Part shown: piece by piece, positions 734-6,438 of the stretch | Layout of the letters: each line of letters starts with the position of its first letter | Numbering within the stretch: position 1 is the first letter of the stretch | Assembly (NCBI GenBank): GCA_020697515.1 | Contig: JAIXNB010000001.1 | Span: 1-8,126 of the forward strand | Source: Nanobdellota archaeon | GTDB taxonomy: Archaea; Nanobdellota; Nanobdellia; Nanobdellales; Nanobdellaceae | DNA: 8,126 bases | Reading direction: 5' to 3' | The notes under the pieces: model-generated | What the model saw: only the letters and a program-made list of their open reading frames with translations | The model's database searches: none | What the model was told of the DNA's origin: nothing | Translations under genes and position numbers: made by a program

Positions 734-1156
734 CTAGCTCGTTATATCCTCAATAAAATACCCATTGTAGTAAATTCTAACTATCGTGCAGTTTTGATCT
801 ACTTCCACAAAGTTTTTAACTAACCCTTTTCTAAATTTTTTACATTGATTTTCTGGCAGGTTATCCTCCGGACTTCTTGGAACATGTACAACATCACATA
901 CCCAGTCAGAGTAGTGCCAATAAGTAATTAAACTAGGTATTTCTGATAGGCATTCTGAAGATAAACTTCTATTTTGTTGAGATAGGATATCCTTAGCATA
1001 TAAACAAAGTTGTCTACAAGTTTCTGCAACCTGGTAAGCCACTTTCATTTCATTCTGACTAGAATCTCCAACAATGGAGGAATATCCTAAGTATGAAAAT
1101 ATAATAGATAATGTTAAAACTATTGCAAGGATGATAGACCTTCTCTTTTTATCCAT
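734..1156 (-). CDS. Hypothetical membrane-anchored or secreted Cys-rich protein (140 aa); possible pilin-like or exported subunit
   Basis: This is a track ORF. Its N-terminus, MDKKRRS-IILAIVLTLSIIFSYLGY, is a short basic head followed by about 18 hydrophobic residues. The remainder is a roughly 110-aa polar domain with exactly six Cys (ETC, QLC, SEC, WVC, NQC, QNC). Its ATG overlaps the stop of the upstream gene (TAATG at 1154-1158), which implies translational coupling. Confidence 0.7.
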   Translation of the reverse strand: MDKKRRSIILAIVLTLSIIFSYLGYSSIVGDSSQNEMKVAYQVAETCRQLCLYAKDILSQQNRSLSSECLSEIPSLITYWHYSDWVCDVVHVPRSPEDNLPENQCKKFRKGLVKNFVEVDQNCTIVRIYYNGYFIEDITS

Positions 1157-1845
1157 TAAGGTCTTCTTATGCTATCTCTTAAAAGTTTTATCTCCTCTAT
1201 AGTTTCTTTTAGCTCTTTTACAGATTCTGATATAGCAGGGATCATTGTACGTACCAATTTGTGTAGGGCCTGTACTTCTACTGTGGCTTCTTTTATACCT
1301 TTATCATATTCTTCTATCTTTTTGATAAGAGTGTTATACAGGTTGTCAACCTTATCGGACAATTTCTTCACATCTTCTTTAATTTGTTCTATCTCAAATG
1401 ATAATCTCTCCTTTGCTAAGTTCAGATCATTTATTTTCTGATCTAGGATTTGTATTTTTTCTTCTACAACTTTCTCAGCTATAGCTTGGATATATGAGTC
1501 CCAATCAAAATCTTGGGAGGTATAACTTTGAGTATATTGATATTCGTACTGATTTTGTGTCTGTTGTTGATCTTGGAATGTAGAGGACATTTGAAATGGT
1601 TGTGTATGAGTTTGGACATTTTGGAAGTCTATTCCAAAGCTCTGATTAAAGTTTGTAGATTGGTTTCTGGATGGATACATTTGGAAACTATTAGAGAATT
1701 GTGATGGAGATACTCTAGGTTGTTCTGGAGTTAAAGCCGGTTGTGGTTGTTCTAAATTAAAGTTCAGATCTTCCTCAGTTTTTGTTTCTTTTTTCTTTAA
1801 GAAGGAATCAAACAACCCCATGTTATATAATAGATTTTTCTTCAT
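1156..1845 (-). CDS. Hypothetical protein (229 aa, or 221 aa from Met9) with an amphipathic N-terminus, a Gln-rich low-complexity domain and a C-terminal coiled coil
   Basis: This is a track ORF. There are two candidate starts. ATG 1845 overlaps the upstream gene by 23 nt. ATG 1821 (MGLFDSFLKKK...) lies one nt after the upstream TAA (1823-1825). Residues 31-111 contain 20 Gln of 81 by hand count, no Lys, and four FQ motifs. Residues about 117-229 are K/E/I/L-rich with heptad character (EKIQILDQKINDLNLAKERLSFEIEQIKEDVKKLSDKVDNLYNTLIKKIEEY...). Confidence 0.75.
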   Translation of the reverse strand: MKKNLLYNMGLFDSFLKKKETKTEEDLNFNLEQPQPALTPEQPRVSPSQFSNSFQMYPSRNQSTNFNQSFGIDFQNVQTHTQPFQMSSTFQDQQQTQNQYEYQYTQSYTSQDFDWDSYIQAIAEKVVEEKIQILDQKINDLNLAKERLSFEIEQIKEDVKKLSDKVDNLYNTLIKKIEEYDKGIKEATVEVQALHKLVRTMIPAISESVKELKETIEEIKLLRDSIRRP

Positions 1846-2200
1846 TTTTTAACATTTCCTTTACCTTATTTTCAACAATTTTGTTAATCAATTCTATAGC
1901 CTCTTTCTTAGTAAGAAAATCGAATGGATTTATGAGATCTAGATATCTCTCTATAACTTTAACTCTATCATTTGTTGCAAATAGGGGAAGTTGATCTAGT
2001 ATAGCATTTACCTTCAAATTTAATTCTTGTATATCCTTTCTTAATCCTGAGATCTCATTGTTTATTTGATTTATTTTCATTTCAACCTCTTTATCCTTTT
2101 CAACAAAATTAACCTCCAAATTTTCAATTAATTGCCTTAATATATTAAGTCTGTCCTCTATAATTCTCAAGCGCCTCTCGATATCTTGCATTTCTTGCAT
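1823..2200 (-). CDS. Hypothetical coiled-coil protein (125 aa), possibly FlaC/ArlC-like
   Basis: This is a track ORF. It has a long heptad-like segment (IERRLRIIEDRLNILRQLIENLEVNFVEKDKEVEMKINQINNEISGLRKDIQELNLKVNAILDQL) followed by ERYLDLINPFDFL (NPF at nt 1922-1930). It is the first gene of the minus-strand trio and starts 36 bp from the divergent ATPase gene. Confidence 0.75.
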   Translation of the reverse strand: MQEMQDIERRLRIIEDRLNILRQLIENLEVNFVEKDKEVEMKINQINNEISGLRKDIQELNLKVNAILDQLPLFATNDRVKVIERYLDLINPFDFLTKKEAIELINKIVENKVKEMLKNEEKSII

Positions 2201-2236: not shown

Positions 2237-4468
2237 ATGGTCATTAGGACTTCTGTAGAGTATATTGGTAGTGGGAAGGTTCTTATAATAGATGCTAAAG
2301 AATACCCTAAACTTGCCACCATAGAAGATGATCCTAATATAATGAGCTTGTGTATCCAAAAGATATCTGAAGATCCTACTATAATTGAGATAAATATTGA
2401 ACAAGAAGAGTTGATATCATATTATGAGGATACAATCATGATATTAAAACAATTTGCAGATGTATATCTAAAGATTAAGCAAATTTTGAGAGAGTACTAT
2501 AGTTATTTGTTATCAGCTAATCCATTATTTCATGAATACAAAAATATATTAGATGTGTTGGATAGAGAGTATTTATACGATCCTATAGGAGCATATGTTA
2601 AAGTGAAAAGGTGGTATAGGAGGTTAAACTTATTAATATCACAAAATCCAAATTTAGAAAGAAGTGCAATACCTTTAATACAACTTATTTCAACATTTGT
2701 TAACACATTTGAAAGCTTATCTTTATATGAGTATATAAAAGATTTTATTCCTGGTTATAAAATAGGAGATCGTTCAATATATAAAAGATTATTTGTTGCA
2801 GACATCAAACCGAAGTTTATTTCTATAAAATATCTTTCTAAAATACCAGAAGATGCTGAAATTATAGAAACGTATTCTATAGATAATGAAACAGAAGTTA
2901 CAATATTCAGAAAGCCTAATGAGATTATTCGTTATTATTATATTTTCCCAGAGGAGTATAAATTATATGAAGAAGAGTTGATGTTGATAAATAAAGCTAG
3001 AGAAGTTCTTATACAATACCAACCAAAGAGGGAAGACTACCTCGATCCTGAAAGATTAAAAGAGATCTATGAGAAAATTATAGATAATATCTTAATTAGC
3101 CTCTCAAAGACATATAATGTGGTTCTAACCCAAAATAAAATCAAGAAGTTGAGAAGTGTCCTAATCAGATACACTATTGGGTTTGGAATCCTAGAGAAAG
3201 TTGCAAAAGATGAGAACGTACAGGATATTTTTGTAAACCCTCCTCCTGGAACTAATCCAATAAGCCTTATACATGCAAATTATGATTTATGTATTACAAA
3301 TATTATACCTACAAAAAGAGAACTAGAGTCATGGGCTACAAAGTTGAGGTTAATTTCTGGTAGACCATTTGATGAATCAAATCCTGTTTTAGATACTGAA
3401 GTATTCATAAACGATATAAGGTTAAGAGTAGCTGCAATAATGGAACCATTAAGTCCAAAAGGTCTGTCCTATGTGTTTAGAAGGCATAGAACAAAACCAT
3501 GGACCATGCCATTGTTTATAAAGGAAAAAATGATCAGTTCTATAGCAGCAGGCTTATTATCATTTTTAGTAGAAAATGGGAGATCTATATTAATTGCGGG
3601 TACGAGAGGCGCGGGTAAAACATCTTTACTAACATCTCTTATGCTAGAACTACCAAGAAATACCCGTATAATTACAATTGAAGACACCTTGGAGATTCCT
3701 GTAAATTACATTAGAAAATTGGGTTACAACATCGTCTCTATGAAAGTACGAAGTCCGTTTTCTCTTCAAACTTCAGAACTTAGTGCAGAAGATGGTGTTA
3801 GAGTATCCTTAAGATTAGGAGACTCTGCTATAATCTTGGGTGAAGTTAGATCAAAGGAAGCGAAAACTTTGTACGAAGCCATGAGAGTCGGAGCTTTAGC
3901 TAACGCGGTTATGGGGACAATTCATGCAGAGAGTCCATATGGCGTTTTTGACAGAGTCGTGAATGATTTAGGTGTGCCAAAAACTTCCTTTAAGGCAACT
4001 GATATCATAGTTATTGCAAATCCAATAAAAGATCCATCCGGGTTGAGAAAGTACAGGAGAGTCATAAGGATAACAGAAGTTAGAAAGCATTGGGAATCTG
4101 ACCCCCTAAAGGAAGGGGGTTTTATGGATCTAATGGTTTACGATACAGATAAAGATATTCTTAGGCCAACACCTAGTTTATTGAATGGAGATTCTGATAT
4201 TCTTAAATCCATTGCCTCAAGAATAAAGCTACTAGCAGGATCTTGGGAACGTCTTTGGGATAATATAGAAATAAGGGCTAAAACAAAGGAATTGTTAGTT
4301 GAATATTCTATTAAGTATAATAAACCATACCTACTAGAGGCAGATTTCGTTGTAAAATCTAATGAAATCCTACATAAAATAATAGAGAGATGTTTGCTAG
4401 AGTATGGAGATATATCCAAGGAATATATAGTTAATGACTTTAAAAGATGGTTGGGGCAGCAGATCTAA
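2237..4468 (+). CDS. Type II/IV secretion-family ATPase, FlaI/ArlI-PilB (VirB11/GspE superfamily) type, 743 aa with N- and C-terminal extensions
   Basis: The track ORF opens at TTG 2186; I prefer the first ATG at 2237 (MVIRTSVEY...). Walker A is GTRGAGKTS (nt 3599-3625). The Asp box is RIITIEDTLEI. Walker B is DSAIILGEVR (nt about 3831-3860). The His box is GTIHAES. Upstream motifs typical of FlaI-like N-domains are also present: YYIFPEEYKLYEEELMLINKARE, RYTIGFGILEKVAKDENVQDIFVN and SYVFRRH. Confidence 0.93.
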   Translation: MVIRTSVEYIGSGKVLIIDAKEYPKLATIEDDPNIMSLCIQKISEDPTIIEINIEQEELISYYEDTIMILKQFADVYLKIKQILREYYSYLLSANPLFHEYKNILDVLDREYLYDPIGAYVKVKRWYRRLNLLISQNPNLERSAIPLIQLISTFVNTFESLSLYEYIKDFIPGYKIGDRSIYKRLFVADIKPKFISIKYLSKIPEDAEIIETYSIDNETEVTIFRKPNEIIRYYYIFPEEYKLYEEELMLINKAREVLIQYQPKREDYLDPERLKEIYEKIIDNILISLSKTYNVVLTQNKIKKLRSVLIRYTIGFGILEKVAKDENVQDIFVNPPPGTNPISLIHANYDLCITNIIPTKRELESWATKLRLISGRPFDESNPVLDTEVFINDIRLRVAAIMEPLSPKGLSYVFRRHRTKPWTMPLFIKEKMISSIAAGLLSFLVENGRSILIAGTRGAGKTSLLTSLMLELPRNTRIITIEDTLEIPVNYIRKLGYNIVSMKVRSPFSLQTSELSAEDGVRVSLRLGDSAIILGEVRSKEAKTLYEAMRVGALANAVMGTIHAESPYGVFDRVVNDLGVPKTSFKATDIIVIANPIKDPSGLRKYRRVIRITEVRKHWESDPLKEGGFMDLMVYDTDKDILRPTPSLLNGDSDILKSIASRIKLLAGSWERLWDNIEIRAKTKELLVEYSIKYNKPYLLEADFVVKSNEILHKIIERCLLEYGDISKEYIVNDFKRWLGQQI

Positions 4469-6438
4469 GTAGAATAAAAAAAGAATACGACTTATACAGA
4501 GAGTATTACTTTGGGAATAGTGTAAAAATTTTTGAAAAGTTGGCAAAGCTCGCGGGCAAATATATAAAAATAAAAGTAGATCCTAAGAAGAAAAAAGAAT
4601 ACGAGAAAATCAATAGTGAGGTCCATTTAAAAGTTACAATAGAAGATATTTATGCCTTGGCTTCTCTATCTCTAGTTATATCCGTTATTATAGGACTGTT
4701 ACTCCTTATATTCTTAAAAAATCTTTTAATTGTTGTATTCTTTGCGATAATAGGTTTTCTTTTATATAATTTAATAATATATTATCCATCATTACTTTAC
4801 CAGATTCTTGAAAAGAAAAAGGAGGGGCAACTGGTCTTGGCAGTAATGTTTCTAGCAATGAAGTTATTAGAAAATCCTAATCTTGAGGTAGCATTTGAAC
4901 ACACTGCTAAGCATTTATCACCCCCACTAAATCTAGACTTCCTAAGATTATTGTGGGATACATACAATAAGAAATATGCATCGCTGTATGAAGCTATAGA
5001 TATTTACTTAAAGAGATGGGAAGATAAAGCATACCACTTCGTTATCGGAATGCAATTGTTAATATCTTCCCTATATGAAGTTGAACAAGTTAGAAGGGAG
5101 ATGTTAATAGATAAAGCAGTGGAGGAGATGCTGAATCATTTATATGAGCGAATGTCTTTTTATGTTAGGGAACTTCAAAGTCCGATAAACCTAATATATA
5201 TGCTTGGAATAGTACTCCCGACCCTTTTGTTAACTTTATTCCCCTTAATATCTGTATTAATGGCAGATATCTTCTCACCGGGTTTCCTTTTATTTATGTT
5301 CGATGTAGCTATCCCATTCATTGTATTTATACTTATAAAGCAATATATTGAAGCCAAAAGAATAGAAGCTGTGTCTAAAGAAGATTTATACTTCTATTTA
5401 TACTTAAAGAAGAATGATATTAAATTTAAAATAATTTCAATTATGGCGGGGATCTTTATTACAATTCTAATCTTCTTTGGAGCAATATTCTTCTTAAAAA
5501 ATTTAATATTTGAGTATAGTATAATAGCCATTCTTGTATCCGGGATATTTATTTTATCATTAGGCTTAGGGATATCTTTCGGGAGTTTTCTTTACTATAA
5601 TTTTTATAGATCATTTGATAAAAGGTTGGATATAATTGAAAAAGAGTTATCATCCTTCTTATTTTCCCTAGGTAATGCTCTAAATAAAAACATCCCACTA
5701 GAATCTGCTATTATCTCTATATATCCAAGATTTAAGAAAAAAGAAATAGGAAAGTTTATTGCAACAATATATAGGAATATAAGGATATTTAATATGTCTA
5801 TATATGATGCAATTTTTGATAAAGAAAGAGGAGCACTAATAAAATTCCCATCCTCATATTTAGAAGCTGCTATGGAAGTTATCATAGAAAGTTCTAAAGT
5901 ATCTCCAAAATCAGCGGCAAAAGCCGCTATAGCTATCTCAAGATACTTTTTATATTTGGAGAGAGTAAAGCTTAGACTTTTAGATCTAACTGCAGAAGTT
6001 ACTTCACAAATGAAATCTTTAGCAAAGATATTAGCTCCAACAATATTAGCTATAATTGTTGCTGTTGCTATCATGTCATTAGTGATTCTCTACAAGTTAG
6101 GAATAGCCATAGAAAACATTAGAGATGTATACTCTATAGGAGGAGAGTATGATTATTATTCTTTTGTTTCATTAGAGATTCTCGATCTTCTTACATTTAA
6201 AGGTACAGTCTCTCCAGCCACAATCTACATAGTAGTTGGTATATTCAATATAGTATCAACAATATTAATTGCATATATGCTCAATATTATAGAAAATGGA
6301 AAAAATACTATAAAAGAGAAGAAGTATATCTATGAATACCTATTGGTATCTTCTATACTATTTTTTATAGTAGCTACATTTGGAAGTATTGCACTTTGGA
6401 TGTTTGCGGAAACTATGATGTCAGCGATAATATCTTAG
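4447..6438 (+). CDS. Polytopic membrane platform protein, FlaJ/ArlJ-TadC/PilC (T2SS-F) type, 663 aa
   Basis: The ATG at 4447 overlaps the ATPase stop by 22 nt. I count about 9 hydrophobic segments by eye, arranged 2+4+3. They are separated by two soluble blocks of about 120-130 aa (residues about 125-250 and 395-520). The second block contains LSSFLFSLGNALNKNIPLESAI, which is typical of the duplicated cytoplasmic T2SS-F domain. The position directly downstream of the secretion ATPase is the conserved arrangement. Confidence 0.88.
   Translation: MVGAADLSRIKKEYDLYREYYFGNSVKIFEKLAKLAGKYIKIKVDPKKKKEYEKINSEVHLKVTIEDIYALASLSLVISVIIGLLLLIFLKNLLIVVFFAIIGFLLYNLIIYYPSLLYQILEKKKEGQLVLAVMFLAMKLLENPNLEVAFEHTAKHLSPPLNLDFLRLLWDTYNKKYASLYEAIDIYLKRWEDKAYHFVIGMQLLISSLYEVEQVRREMLIDKAVEEMLNHLYERMSFYVRELQSPINLIYMLGIVLPTLLLTLFPLISVLMADIFSPGFLLFMFDVAIPFIVFILIKQYIEAKRIEAVSKEDLYFYLYLKKNDIKFKIISIMAGIFITILIFFGAIFFLKNLIFEYSIIAILVSGIFILSLGLGISFGSFLYYNFYRSFDKRLDIIEKELSSFLFSLGNALNKNIPLESAIISIYPRFKKKEIGKFIATIYRNIRIFNMSIYDAIFDKERGALIKFPSSYLEAAMEVIIESSKVSPKSAAKAAIAISRYFLYLERVKLRLLDLTAEVTSQMKSLAKILAPTILAIIVAVAIMSLVILYKLGIAIENIRDVYSIGGEYDYYSFVSLEILDLLTFKGTVSPATIYIVVGIFNIVSTILIAYMLNIIENGKNTIKEKKYIYEYLLVSSILFFIVATFGSIALWMFAETMMSAIIS

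What the first reader, a model, noticed from the sequence alone, without database searches (positions are those of the whole stretch)
1513..1755. Gln-rich, Lys-free prion-like domain with repeated FQ motifs inside an otherwise K/E-rich protein
**Seen:**
- Residues 31-111 of the 229-aa protein read LEQPQPALTPEQPRVSPSQFSNSFQMYPSRNQSTNFNQSFGIDFQNVQTHTQPFQMSSTFQDQQQTQNQYEYQYTQSYTSQ.
- This segment has 20 Gln in 81 residues (hand count), many N/S/T/P, regularly spaced aromatics and no Lys.
- The dipeptide FQ occurs four times (SFQM, DFQN, PFQM, TFQD).
- It sits between a short amphipathic N-terminus (MGLFDSFLKKK) and a coiled coil of about 110 aa.

**Established:** Q/N-rich domains with aromatic 'stickers' drive amyloid, hydrogel or condensate formation in eukaryotic and some bacterial proteins. 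They are uncommon in the K/E/I-rich proteomes typical of AT-rich archaea such as this one.

**Inference:** This is a flexible, self-associating linker, which could form a mesh or condensate at the base of the ATPase/platform complex. The MGLFD-type N-terminus resembles the membrane-binding amphipathic helices found at the start of PspA/Vipp1-type proteins. That resemblance is from recollection only.
Basis: partly seen in the sequence, partly recalled or inferred. Interest (0 to 1): 0.6.

Follow-up and report, generated by a model that had tools for sequence, protein, structure and literature searches.

The report
Gln-rich disordered tether in nanoarchaeal coiled-coil protein
The glutamine-rich stretch is real: it is the disordered linker of a protein found once in nearly every sampled genome of this nanoarchaeal phylum, beside an unusual secretion-type ATPase. 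It most likely acts as a flexible, low-charge tether between a membrane-binding tip and a long coiled coil, and prion-like behaviour has not been shown.

Summary
**Observation: confirmed.**
- Window 1513-1755 (-) encodes 81 residues with 20 Gln, no Lys and four FQ. This is the most Gln-rich window in a proteome with 2.1% Gln and 9.8% Lys.
- The four FQ and the aromatic spacing are explained by composition (P about 0.06 each).
- The true start is probably M9 (MGLFDS), giving 221 aa.

**What it is.**
- AlphaFold gives residues 1-110 as disordered and 115-227 as one long helix.
- In orthologues the linker keeps its composition (Q 20-34%, P, F/Y, almost no K). Its sequence diverges and it gains and loses residues freely.
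- A profile of the C-terminal coiled coil hits 290 of 301 sampled genomes of the phylum, almost always once.
- In 17 of 20 diverse genomes the gene lies beside a second coiled-coil gene, a long (about 750 aa) secretion ATPase and a PilC/GspF-like membrane protein.
- Across the family the linker is P/Q-rich and K-poor, 11-252 aa long.
- The N-terminus (consensus MALFG-L/F-GKKKEE) resembles this genome's own SepF membrane-targeting end.

**Best reading.** A ZipA-like flexible tether joins a membrane-binding tip to a scaffold coiled coil of a type IV filament-like machine.

**Not supported or untested.** PspA/Vipp1 membership is not supported. Condensate or amyloid behaviour is untested.

First readers of this scan noted the same architecture in several other genomes.

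The parts
1156..1821 (-). Gene for the tether/coiled-coil protein, 221 aa from the probable start M9. The longest ORF starts at 1845 and gives 229 aa. The stop codon is 1156-1158.
   Evidence: ORF list and translation. The same-genus orthologue L043:1041-1718 begins MGLFDS one base after the upstream stop. The window reads TAA-c-ATG at 1825-1819.
1789..1821 (-). N-terminal motif MGLFDSFLKKK: a hydrophobic pair plus a basic cluster, a candidate membrane-targeting sequence.
   Evidence: Family consensus is M-A-L-F-G-(L/F)-G-K-K-K-E-E. 158 of 254 members have a hydrophobic pair followed by a basic pair within 16 residues. It resembles the N-terminus of this genome's own SepF.
1756..1788 (-). Short charged spacer ETKTEEDLNFN between the motif and the Gln-rich segment.
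   Evidence: Translation. Orthologues have an acidic run here, KKEEEEE.
1513..1755 (-). The finding: an 81-residue Gln-rich, Lys-free, aromatic-bearing disordered linker.
   Evidence: Counts and statistics. AF2 pLDDT is 34-41. Composition is conserved in orthologues and sequence is not.
1159..1512 (-). Conserved C-terminal coiled-coil domain (residues 112-229) with invariant EYDKG and RTMIPAISES motifs.
   Evidence: Alignment A2 has 77% mean column identity. AF2 gives a single helix 115-227 with pLDDT above 90. The heptad signal is continuous with two register shifts. The profile hits 290 of 301 genomes of the phylum.
1823..2200 (-). Upstream partner gene: a 125-aa coiled-coil protein with a conserved KYIxLWxPxxFVT-type motif (YLDLINPFDF in this genome).
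   Evidence: It is adjacent to the target in 18 of 20 diverse loci. Alignment A4. FlaC_arch matches are only weak.
734..1156 (-). Downstream 140-aa gene with an N-terminal hydrophobic segment and a Cys-bearing ectodomain. It was found here, in the same-family genome G248 and next to the same-genus orthologue.
   Evidence: ORF. A homologue was found in L018 and in none of the other 19 diverse loci. It is present next to the same-genus orthologue.
2237..4468 (+). Divergently transcribed long (743 aa) T2SSE/FlaI-like secretion ATPase.
   Evidence: Pfam T2SSE 2.7e-19. NCBIfam FlaI scores 142 bits against a cut-off of 550. Orthologues at E about 1e-190 to 1e-300 lie in 17 of 20 loci. It is distinct from two shorter T2SSE paralogues in this genome.
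4447..6438 (+). 663-aa polytopic membrane protein in the 'platform' position.
   Evidence: No Pfam or NCBIfam match, and no T2SSF match even at E <= 1. The AF2 model (pLDDT 81) has cytoplasmic domains that match the OutF, EpsF and PilC cytoplasmic domains, with TM by target 0.56-0.68.

Best explanation
The Gln-rich segment is the intrinsically disordered linker of a three-part protein.

**Part 1: N-terminal motif.** MGLFDSFLKKK is a short hydrophobic-plus-basic motif. It most likely binds the cytoplasmic face of the membrane, as the N-terminal targeting sequence of SepF does.

**Part 2: linker.** About 90 residues are nearly uncharged and Lys-free, and rich in Q, N, S, T and P with scattered F and Y. 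They act as a flexible tether.

**Part 3: coiled coil.** A 115-residue, highly conserved coiled coil probably pairs with the adjacent 125-aa coiled-coil protein. Together they would form a cytoplasmic scaffold at a type IV filament-like machine, made of a long secretion ATPase and a PilC/GspF-like membrane protein.

Selection acts on the linker's composition and disorder, not on its sequence or exact length. The Q/aromatic-rich flavour is the Nanopusillaceae version of a phylum-wide P/Q-rich linker.

**Shown here:** disorder prediction, conserved composition, phylum-wide single-copy distribution and synteny.

**Inferred:** membrane binding, pairing with the neighbour, contact with the ATPase, and the tether role.
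For: **Disorder plus helix.** AF2 gives pLDDT below 50 for 1-110 and above 90 for the 115-227 helix. Heptads are continuous.

**Composition is conserved, sequence is not.**
- Most Nanopusillaceae linkers have Q 20-34%, P 8-21%, aromatics 13-21% and K 0-3%.
- Where the C-domain is 88% identical, the linker is 45% identical with 31 gap positions.

**Family-wide pattern (249 members).** Median linker length is 50 aa (range 11-252). Means are P 21%, Q 14.5%, K 1.1% (median 0) and D+E 10%. The C-domain has K 12.5%.

**Selection against mutational bias.** The genome is about 30% G+C and K-rich. Yet 17 CAA codons, each one base from AAA (Lys), sit in a stretch with no Lys.

**N-terminal motif.**
- The motif is conserved and resembles the SepF N-terminus of the same genome.
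- Five of 20 homologues of the partner protein carry their own MxLFxKK plus P-rich N-terminus.

**Distribution and synteny.**
- The C-domain profile hits 290 of 301 genomes, nearly always once.
- The partner is adjacent in 18 of 20 loci. The ATPase and membrane protein lie within 9 kb in 17 of 20.
- The ATPase, the partner and the target are all retained, dispersed, in the 490,885-bp genome G059.

**Analogues in the literature.**
- The ZipA P/Q domain is a flexible tether (PMC6904479).
- ArlX is a membrane-anchored helical scaffold that binds ArlI and ArlH (PMC10117864).
Against: - No experiment or expression data: no RNA run was listed.
- Membrane binding rests on resemblance only. The hydrophobic moment of the motif is modest (0.29). 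About a third of family members lack a recognisable motif in the called ORF.
- Pairing with the neighbour and contact with the ATPase rest on gene order alone.
- The linker has few charges (fraction of charged residues 0.09) and about 14% aromatics. From established polymer physics of disordered proteins, that predicts a compact, sticky chain rather than an extended spacer. A purely passive tether may therefore be too simple.
- The membrane protein is not a recognisable T2SSF by sequence.
Confidence: 0.6

Rival explanations
1. Cohesive, prion-like or FG-nucleoporin-like domain. The uncharged Q/N-rich chain with spaced F/Y 'stickers' self-associates. Many membrane-tethered copies would then form a gel, condensate or amyloid-like mesh around the cytoplasmic face of the machine, concentrating or filtering its clients.
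For: - Composition: Q 25%, aromatics about 14%, charged fraction 0.09, no Lys.
- Aromatic gaps are more even than shuffles in 12 of 14 related linkers.
- The same-genus orthologue has an even denser F-Q-Q pattern.
- The coiled coil would make the domain multivalent.
- Archaeal Q/N-rich domains can form amyloid in tests (10.1101/2020.07.20.212902).
Against: - Outside Nanopusillaceae the equivalent linker is P/Q/G/M-rich with only about 6% aromatics, and can be as short as 11 aa. Cohesion is therefore not a family-wide requirement.
- Q+N is 27 per 80, under the classical threshold.
- The FQ enrichment and the spacing are individually non-significant.
- The Pro content (8-21%) disfavours amyloid.
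- No predictor or experiment was run.
Confidence: 0.17
2. Carrier of short linear motifs. The linker is disordered, but its job is to present short binding motifs (for example the Y-P-x-R-x-Q / PYRYQ(D/E)PF patch) to a partner such as the ATPase's extra N-terminal region.
For: - A PYRYQ(D/E)PF-like patch is shared by a subgroup of orthologues. It aligns loosely with MYPSRNQ in the target.
- The linker evolves more slowly among close relatives than a free spacer might: 0.52-0.80 identity where the C-domain is 0.83-0.93.
Against: - The patch is not conserved across the genus (P0002, L043) or the phylum.
- Low-complexity alignment inflates identity.
- Linker length varies more than 20-fold.
Confidence: 0.1
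3. Neutral low-complexity filler. The segment is a lineage-specific expansion with no role beyond separating two functional ends.
For: Sequence and length are poorly conserved and indels are frequent.
Against: - The composition runs against the genome's A+T and Lys bias, and is maintained in 14 Nanopusillaceae orthologues and, as P/Q-rich and K-poor, across 249 family members.
- There is no DNA repeat that would mark a recent slippage expansion.
- The linker is retained even in the roughly 0.49-Mb genome G059.
Confidence: 0.08
4. PspA/Vipp1/ESCRT-III-like membrane-remodelling protein, as the MGLFD start suggested to the first reader.
For: The protein is helical.
Against: - No PspA_IM30 or Snf7 hit at E <= 0.1.
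- AF2 shows one continuous helix, not the alpha1-alpha2 hairpin.
- The tip is separated from the helix by about 100 disordered residues.
- The family consensus tip is MALFG(L/F)GKKK, not a long amphipathic helix.
Confidence: 0.03

Closest known systems
ZipA (E. coli FtsZ membrane tether) P/Q domain
   Same: The order of parts matches: an N-terminal membrane anchor, a short charged stretch, about 100 unstructured P/Q-rich residues acting as a flexible tether, then a C-terminal partner-binding domain (PMC6904479).
   Different: - ZipA has a true transmembrane helix and a globular FtsZ-binding domain. Here the anchor is at most a peripheral motif and the C-terminal part is a coiled coil.
- There is no sequence homology.
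- The context is a secretion-ATPase locus, not the divisome.
SepF N-terminal membrane-targeting sequence
   Same: Both are very short N-terminal hydrophobic-plus-basic peptides followed by a linker. This genome's own SepF (Pfam 2.7e-12) starts MISLLSLFKKRKNGEEEE, compared with MGLFDSFLKKK or MINLFKKxKKEEEEE in the target family. The Haloferax SepF peptide alone localises GFP (PMC8187382).
   Different: The C-terminal domains are unrelated. Membrane binding of the target's motif is untested.
ArlX (FlaX) and ArlCDE, cytoplasmic scaffolds of the archaellum motor
   Same: Both are membrane-associated or cytoplasmic helical/coiled-coil proteins encoded next to a FlaI-type ATPase. ArlX forms rings around the ATPase and binds it through its C-terminus (PMC10117864).
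   Different: - ArlX has an N-terminal transmembrane helix and no long disordered linker.
- The target has no FlaC_arch or Arch_fla_DE match.
- The ATPase here is a separate, longer paralogue. It is retained in the 490,885-bp genome G059, which I take to be Nanoarchaeum; that genus is reported to lack archaellum genes.
Q/N-rich prion-like domains (yeast-type; archaeal candidates found with PLAAC)
   Same: Both are Q/N/S/T/P-rich and predicted disordered, with few charges and interspersed aromatics. Candidate domains are known in archaea and are densest in two Nanoarchaeota proteomes (10.1101/2020.07.20.212902).
   Different: - Q+N is 27 per 80, below the classical cut-off.
- PLAAC was not run and no aggregation data exist.
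- The segment sits as a linker between two functional ends, not as a terminal regulatory domain.
Cohesive FG (GLFG-type) nucleoporin domains
   Same: Both are uncharged, Q/N/S/T-rich spacers with Phe every few residues, grafted onto a coiled-coil anchor (established knowledge, from memory).
   Different: The segment has only one FG dipeptide. There is no repeat unit and no transport channel is known. The resemblance is compositional only.

Membership tests
Q/N-rich prion-like domain | At least 30 Q+N in an 80-residue window (classical Q/N-rich criterion, recalled from memory) | tested here: not met
   The maximum is 27 Q+N per 80 residues.
Q/N-rich prion-like domain | Predicted intrinsic disorder and low charge | tested here: met
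   AF2 pLDDT is 34-41 across the segment. The fraction of charged residues is 0.086.
Q/N-rich prion-like domain | PLAAC HMM core score above threshold | not testable with these tools
   PLAAC, IUPred and FuzDrop are not available here.
Q/N-rich prion-like domain | Self-templating aggregation or amyloid formation | not testable with these tools
   This needs recombinant protein.
PspA/Vipp1/ESCRT-III | Match to the PspA_IM30 or Snf7 profile | tested here: not met
   Neither family appears among the Pfam matches listed at E <= 0.1 for the target. Neither is among the 25 most frequent families listed for 40 family members.
PspA/Vipp1/ESCRT-III | Helical hairpin core directly after the N-terminal amphipathic helix | tested here: not met
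   AF2 gives a single helix 115-227, and about 100 disordered residues separate it from the tip.
SepF-type N-terminal membrane-targeting sequence (functional class) | Short N-terminal hydrophobic segment with adjacent basic residues at the very start of the protein | tested here: met
   The target starts MGLFDSFLKKK. The family consensus is MALFG(L/F)GKKKEE. This genome's SepF starts MISLLSLFKKRK.
SepF-type N-terminal membrane-targeting sequence (functional class) | Binds membranes, and is sufficient to localise a reporter | not testable with these tools
   Only the hydrophobic moment could be computed: 0.29 for the target and 0.32 for the genome's SepF.
Archaellum scaffolds ArlC/D/E and ArlX | FlaC_arch or Arch_fla_DE profile match | tested here: not met
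   The target has no such hit. The neighbouring 125-aa family matches FlaC_arch in only 2 of 20 members, at E >= 0.011.
Archaellum scaffolds ArlC/D/E and ArlX | N-terminal transmembrane helix (ArlX) | tested here: not met
   The sequence has no hydrophobic stretch of transmembrane length.
Archaellum scaffolds ArlC/D/E and ArlX | Encoded with the archaellum ATPase ArlI, ArlH and archaellins | tested here: not met
   - The ATPase scores 142 bits against the FlaI cut-off of 550.
- It has two shorter paralogues elsewhere in the genome.
- The module persists in genome G059, which I take from its size to be Nanoarchaeum. That genus is reported to lack archaellum genes (PMC13718433).
Accessory protein of a type IV filament-like machine (by association) | Conserved gene neighbourhood with a secretion ATPase and a platform-type membrane protein | tested here: met
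   Found in 17 of 20 loci from diverse families of the phylum and in L001. The cytoplasmic domains of the membrane protein match the GspF/PilC domain folds.
Accessory protein of a type IV filament-like machine (by association) | Physical interaction with the machine | not testable with these tools
   No multimer prediction or experiment is available.

The most novel reading that the evidence does not exclude
Many copies of this protein are pinned to the membrane by their N-terminal tips and bundled by their coiled coils. Their uncharged Q/F/Y-rich chains form a cohesive gel or condensate at the cytoplasmic mouth of a phylum-specific, probably essential type IV filament-like machine. That would be an FG-nucleoporin-like selective or recruiting phase in a hyperthermophilic, genome-reduced archaeal symbiont.
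Probability: 0.1. Interest if true: 0.85.

Novelty: new variant of a known kind. Interest (0 to 1): 0.5.

Why it matters
**An unnamed, near-universal family.**
- The protein family has no Pfam, NCBIfam or PDB relative.
- It is present once in about 96% of sampled genomes of a whole archaeal phylum of tiny symbionts.
- It stays glued to an unusual long secretion ATPase even in the most reduced genomes.
- That pattern marks a core, unexplained piece of nanoarchaeal cell biology, possibly linked to host contact or uptake.

**A design rule.**
- The Gln-rich linker shows the layout: a peripheral membrane tip, a low-charge P/Q linker, then a coiled coil.
- The same layout recurs in at least two other proteins of the same genome and in the partner protein in other lineages.

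**Selection in a hot, A+T-rich setting.**
- The organism appears to come from a hot vent and is A+T-rich.
- A Lys-free, 25% Gln chain there is clearly held by selection.
- This makes it a good test case for what disordered linkers must do at high temperature.

The finding itself is a compositional variant of a known kind of element, not a new mechanism.

Tried and rejected
- **Family searches on the C-domain.** Pfam, NCBIfam and the PDB sequence profile gave only generic coiled-coil noise. The DUF7310 hit is non-specific: it rings in 12 of 14 control genomes.
- **FlaC/ArlC relationship of the neighbour.** Too weak to claim.
- **Target and neighbour as paralogues.** hhalign probability is 24%, so not shown.
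- **FQ motif and aromatic periodicity.** Not beyond composition.
- **DNA slippage origin.** No tandem repeat.
- **Expression.** Only DNA runs from hydrothermal-vent metagenomes hold the locus. No RNA run was listed.
- **'Paralogue' status of the two other proteins with the same layout.** There is no significant similarity: BLASTP E = 0.019 in a coiled-coil stretch and HMM scores at or below 10 bits. They share architecture only.
- **Papers.** Papers on Nanobdellota attachment organelles and on complete genomes do not mention this locus.
- **Fold search of the target model.** Not run, because a single long helix gives meaningless matches.
- **A wasted call.** One self-comparison was uninformative.
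- **Outside the phylum.** I did not search there. All named hits are Woesearchaeota or Nanoarchaeota.
Full report
**1.

- Residues 31-111 correspond exactly to window 1755-1513. They contain 20 Gln, 11 Ser, 8 Thr, 7 Pro, 7 Phe, 6 Asn, 5 Tyr and no Lys, with FQ four times.
- The window is contig C14 of a 469-kb, 55-contig assembly. Database names for close homologues place it in Nanopusillaceae.
- Crude ORFs of that assembly give a background of 2.1% Gln and 9.8% Lys. The 81-residue segment is the most Gln-rich in the genome; the runner-up has 14 Q.
- On that background, P(>=20 Q) is about 4e-16 and P(no K) is about 2e-4.
- No tandem DNA repeat underlies the segment. 17 of 20 Gln codons are CAA, one base from the Lys codon AAA.

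- Four FQ dipeptides are what composition gives: 1.7 are expected and P = 0.06. [FY]Q is not enriched in 14 related linkers.
- The 'regular' aromatic spacing is only a weak, consistent trend. The gap CV is below the shuffle mean in 12 of 14 linkers, with single P values mostly above 0.05.

Q+N peaks at 27 per 80 residues.

The start is most likely M9 (window 1821).
- The upstream gene ends TAA at 1825-1823, followed by c-ATG.
- The same-genus orthologue starts MGLFDS immediately after its upstream gene's stop.

**2. Anatomy**

- AlphaFold2 with a 15-sequence alignment gives pLDDT below 50 for residues 1-110. It gives a single helix 115-227 with pLDDT above 90.
- Heptad scoring finds a continuous a/d pattern from about 120 to 229. 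There are two register shifts, near residues 160 and 196.
- The protein therefore has four parts:
  - a short tip, MGLFDSFLKKK;
  - a small charged spacer;
  - a linker of about 90 residues with a charged fraction of 0.09, against 0.40 in the helix;
  - a coiled coil of about 115 residues with invariant EYDKG and RTMIPAISES motifs.

**3. Orthologues**

- Fourteen close homologues share the tip (MINLFKKxKKEEEEE, MGLFDS...) and the C-domain, which has 77% mean column identity.
- Most of their linkers are Q 20-34%, P 8-21%, F+Y 13-21% and K 0-3%. One subclade is poorer in Q and richer in Y, E and K.
- The linkers barely align. Where C-domains are 88% identical, the linkers are 45% identical with 31 gap positions.
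- The same-genus orthologue has an even denser F-Q-Q pattern.

**4. A large, unnamed, phylum-wide family**

- A profile of the C-domain finds 608 cluster representatives at E <= 1e-10 among 1.84 billion proteins. The domain is at or near the C-terminus in every hit listed.
- It hits 290 of 301 sampled genomes of the phylum, almost always exactly once.
- Named hits are all 'hypothetical protein' of Woesearchaeota or Nanoarchaeota.
- No Pfam, NCBIfam or PDB family matches beyond coiled-coil noise.
- Most members outside Nanopusillaceae carry four elements:
  - an N-terminal MALFG(L/F)GKKKEE;
  - a small helical module (…MRQQGxSNNQI…), which Nanopusillaceae lack;
  - a P/Q/G/M-rich linker;
  - the coiled coil.
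- Over 249 members the linker has a median of 50 aa (range 11-252). Means are P 21%, Q 14.5%, K 1.1% (median 0), D+E 10% and aromatics 5.8%.

**5. Genomic context**

- In the window the gene is the middle of a minus-strand trio: a 125-aa coiled coil, the target, and a 140-aa anchored Cys protein.
- The trio is divergent from a 743-aa T2SSE-type ATPase and a 663-aa polytopic membrane protein.
- The same arrangement occurs in a 30-kb relative.
- In 20 loci taken from diverse families, the 125-aa homologue is adjacent in 18. The ATPase (E 1e-190 to 1e-300) and the membrane protein lie within 9 kb in 17.
- The ATPase is not the archaellum motor. It scores 142 bits against NCBIfam FlaI's cut-off of 550. 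This genome has two further, shorter T2SSE ATPases.
- The long ATPase, the 125-aa partner and the target are all retained, scattered, in the single-contig 490,885-bp genome of the same order. That size equals the one I recall for Nanoarchaeum equitans. The genus is reported to lack archaellum genes (PMC13718433).
- The membrane protein has no T2SSF match even at E <= 1, although six T2SSF matches exist elsewhere in the genome.
- Its AF2 model (pLDDT 81) has cytoplasmic domains that superpose on the OutF, EpsF and PilC cytoplasmic domains, with TM by target 0.56-0.68. It is a divergent platform-type protein.
- Makarova et al. noted a nanoarchaeal ATPase in their clade 4F, whose halobacterial loci carry a coiled-coil partner (PMC4858521). 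I could not test homology to that partner.

**6. The N-terminal tip**

- 158 of 254 family members have a hydrophobic pair followed by a basic pair within 16 residues. The positional consensus is M-A-L-F-G-(L/F)-G-K-K-K-E-E.
- The genome's own SepF (Pfam SepF 2.7e-12) starts MISLLSLFKKRKNGEEEE.
- In Haloferax, the 12-residue SepF N-terminus alone localises GFP, and N-terminal tagging abolishes localisation (PMC8187382).
- Five of 20 homologues of the 125-aa partner carry their own MxLFxKK tip plus a P-rich stretch. This fits a membrane-tethered heteromeric coiled coil.
- Membrane binding itself is inferred. The computed hydrophobic moment is modest (0.29).

**7. Mechanism**

- The most economical reading is a tether: a peripheral membrane tip, then a flexible low-charge linker, then a coiled-coil scaffold at the ATPase/platform pair.
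- ZipA is the closest analogue for the linker: an anchor, a charged stretch, about 100 unstructured P/Q residues and a binding domain (PMC6904479).
- ArlX is the closest analogue for the role: a membrane-anchored helical protein that forms rings and binds ArlI and ArlH (PMC10117864).
- Selection clearly acts on composition. A Lys-free, CAA-rich stretch persists in an A+T-rich, Lys-rich genome, and the property is phylum-wide.
- The near absence of positive charge may keep the chain off the membrane and off nucleic acids. That is inference.
- The low charge and the 14% aromatics predict a compact, sticky chain rather than an extended one (established polymer behaviour of polar disordered tracts). 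Weak self-association in Nanopusillaceae therefore remains possible. I give the cohesive, condensate reading about 0.17.
- The PspA/Vipp1 idea fails both profile and fold tests.

**8. Limits**

- There are no expression data: only DNA runs from hydrothermal-vent metagenomes hold the locus.
- No disorder or prion predictor was available, and no multimer modelling.
- The family was not searched outside its phylum.
- Kinship among genomes means that the counts are not independent.

**9. Earlier notes of this scan**

- First readers flagged the same layout in several other genomes: a basic tip, a Q/N/P/aromatic linker and a coiled coil beside the ATPase. They sometimes noted a 'paralogue-like' second gene.
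- In this genome two further proteins share the layout, at contig C50:185-757 and C55:2-379.
- I tested them. They share architecture but no detectable homology with the target.
- The C-terminal part of the 191-aa protein is conserved in 18 of 21 relatives.

**Verdict**

The feature is real and under selection. It is best described as the disordered tether of a core, unnamed nanoarchaeal coiled-coil protein. It is a new variant of a known kind of element, with an open and testable possibility of cohesive behaviour.

Noticed in passing
L004:185-757 (-) = G000 contig C50; L005:2-379 (-) = contig C55: Two more proteins of this genome (191 aa and 126 aa) have the same layout: MIKLTLFGKKKEE or MVLDLLKKIFKRKEE, then a Q/P/T/S-rich linker (14 Q per 81 aa), then a C-terminal coiled coil. 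They show no significant homology to the target. The C-terminal part of the 191-aa protein is found in 18 of 21 relatives, and the 126-aa protein in 7 of 21.
   Followed up: partly
L004:6645-7025 (-) = G000 contig C50: This is the genome's SepF (Pfam 2.7e-12). Its N-terminus, MISLLSLFKKRKNGEEEE, closely resembles the tips of the target family.
   Followed up: partly
window 4447-6438 (+): The 663-aa membrane protein next to the ATPase fails the T2SSF Pfam model even at E <= 1, while six T2SSF matches lie elsewhere in the genome. Its AF2 model's cytoplasmic domains still match the GspF/EpsF/PilC domains with TM by target 0.56-0.68. It is a very divergent platform protein, conserved across the phylum.
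   Followed up: partly
window 2237-4468 (+); G059:C1:373252-375309; G248:C1:394043-396253: The long ATPase forms its own orthologue group (44-61% identity across the order). It is kept in a 490,885-bp genome where the module's genes are dispersed at about 373, 429 and 471 kb.
   Followed up: partly
window 1823-2200 (-) and alignment A4: The 125-aa partner family has a conserved A-x-K-E-D-V-x-V-L-x-K-Y-I-x-L-W-x-P-x-x-F-V-T motif after its coiled coil. In several non-Nanopusillaceae lineages it carries its own MxLFxKK tip and P-rich N-terminal extension. FlaC_arch similarity is marginal.
   Followed up: partly
P0019-P0138 (family members outside Nanopusillaceae): Most members carry a small helical module (…VLxMRQQGxSNNQIVxxLQRxGY…IFDAMNQAD) between the tip and the linker. 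It gives weak DUF7626/UBA-like Pfam hits. It is missing in Nanopusillaceae and no copy was found elsewhere in this genome.
   Followed up: partly
P0152 (381 aa, ENA metagenome): One family member has a different N-terminal half. By eye it contains a J-domain-like stretch with a YHPD motif, ahead of the same C-terminal coiled coil.
   Followed up: no
The genome search family code f26: Seven of the 11 genomes without a C-domain match belong to one family (f26). Only 7 of its 13 sampled genomes match, all weakly (E 1e-8 to 1e-12). That lineage has either diverged or lost the protein.
   Followed up: no
window 1513-1704 (+): A 63-aa Leu-rich ORF lies antisense to the Gln-rich segment. It is the mirror image of the CAA codons (TTG = Leu) and is almost certainly not a gene.
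   Followed up: no
window 734-1156 (-); L043:1744-2178: The 140-aa anchored Cys-rich protein downstream was found here, in the same-family genome G248 and next to the same-genus orthologue, and in none of the other 19 diverse loci. The trio is therefore a Nanopusillaceae elaboration of a phylum-wide pair.
   Followed up: partly
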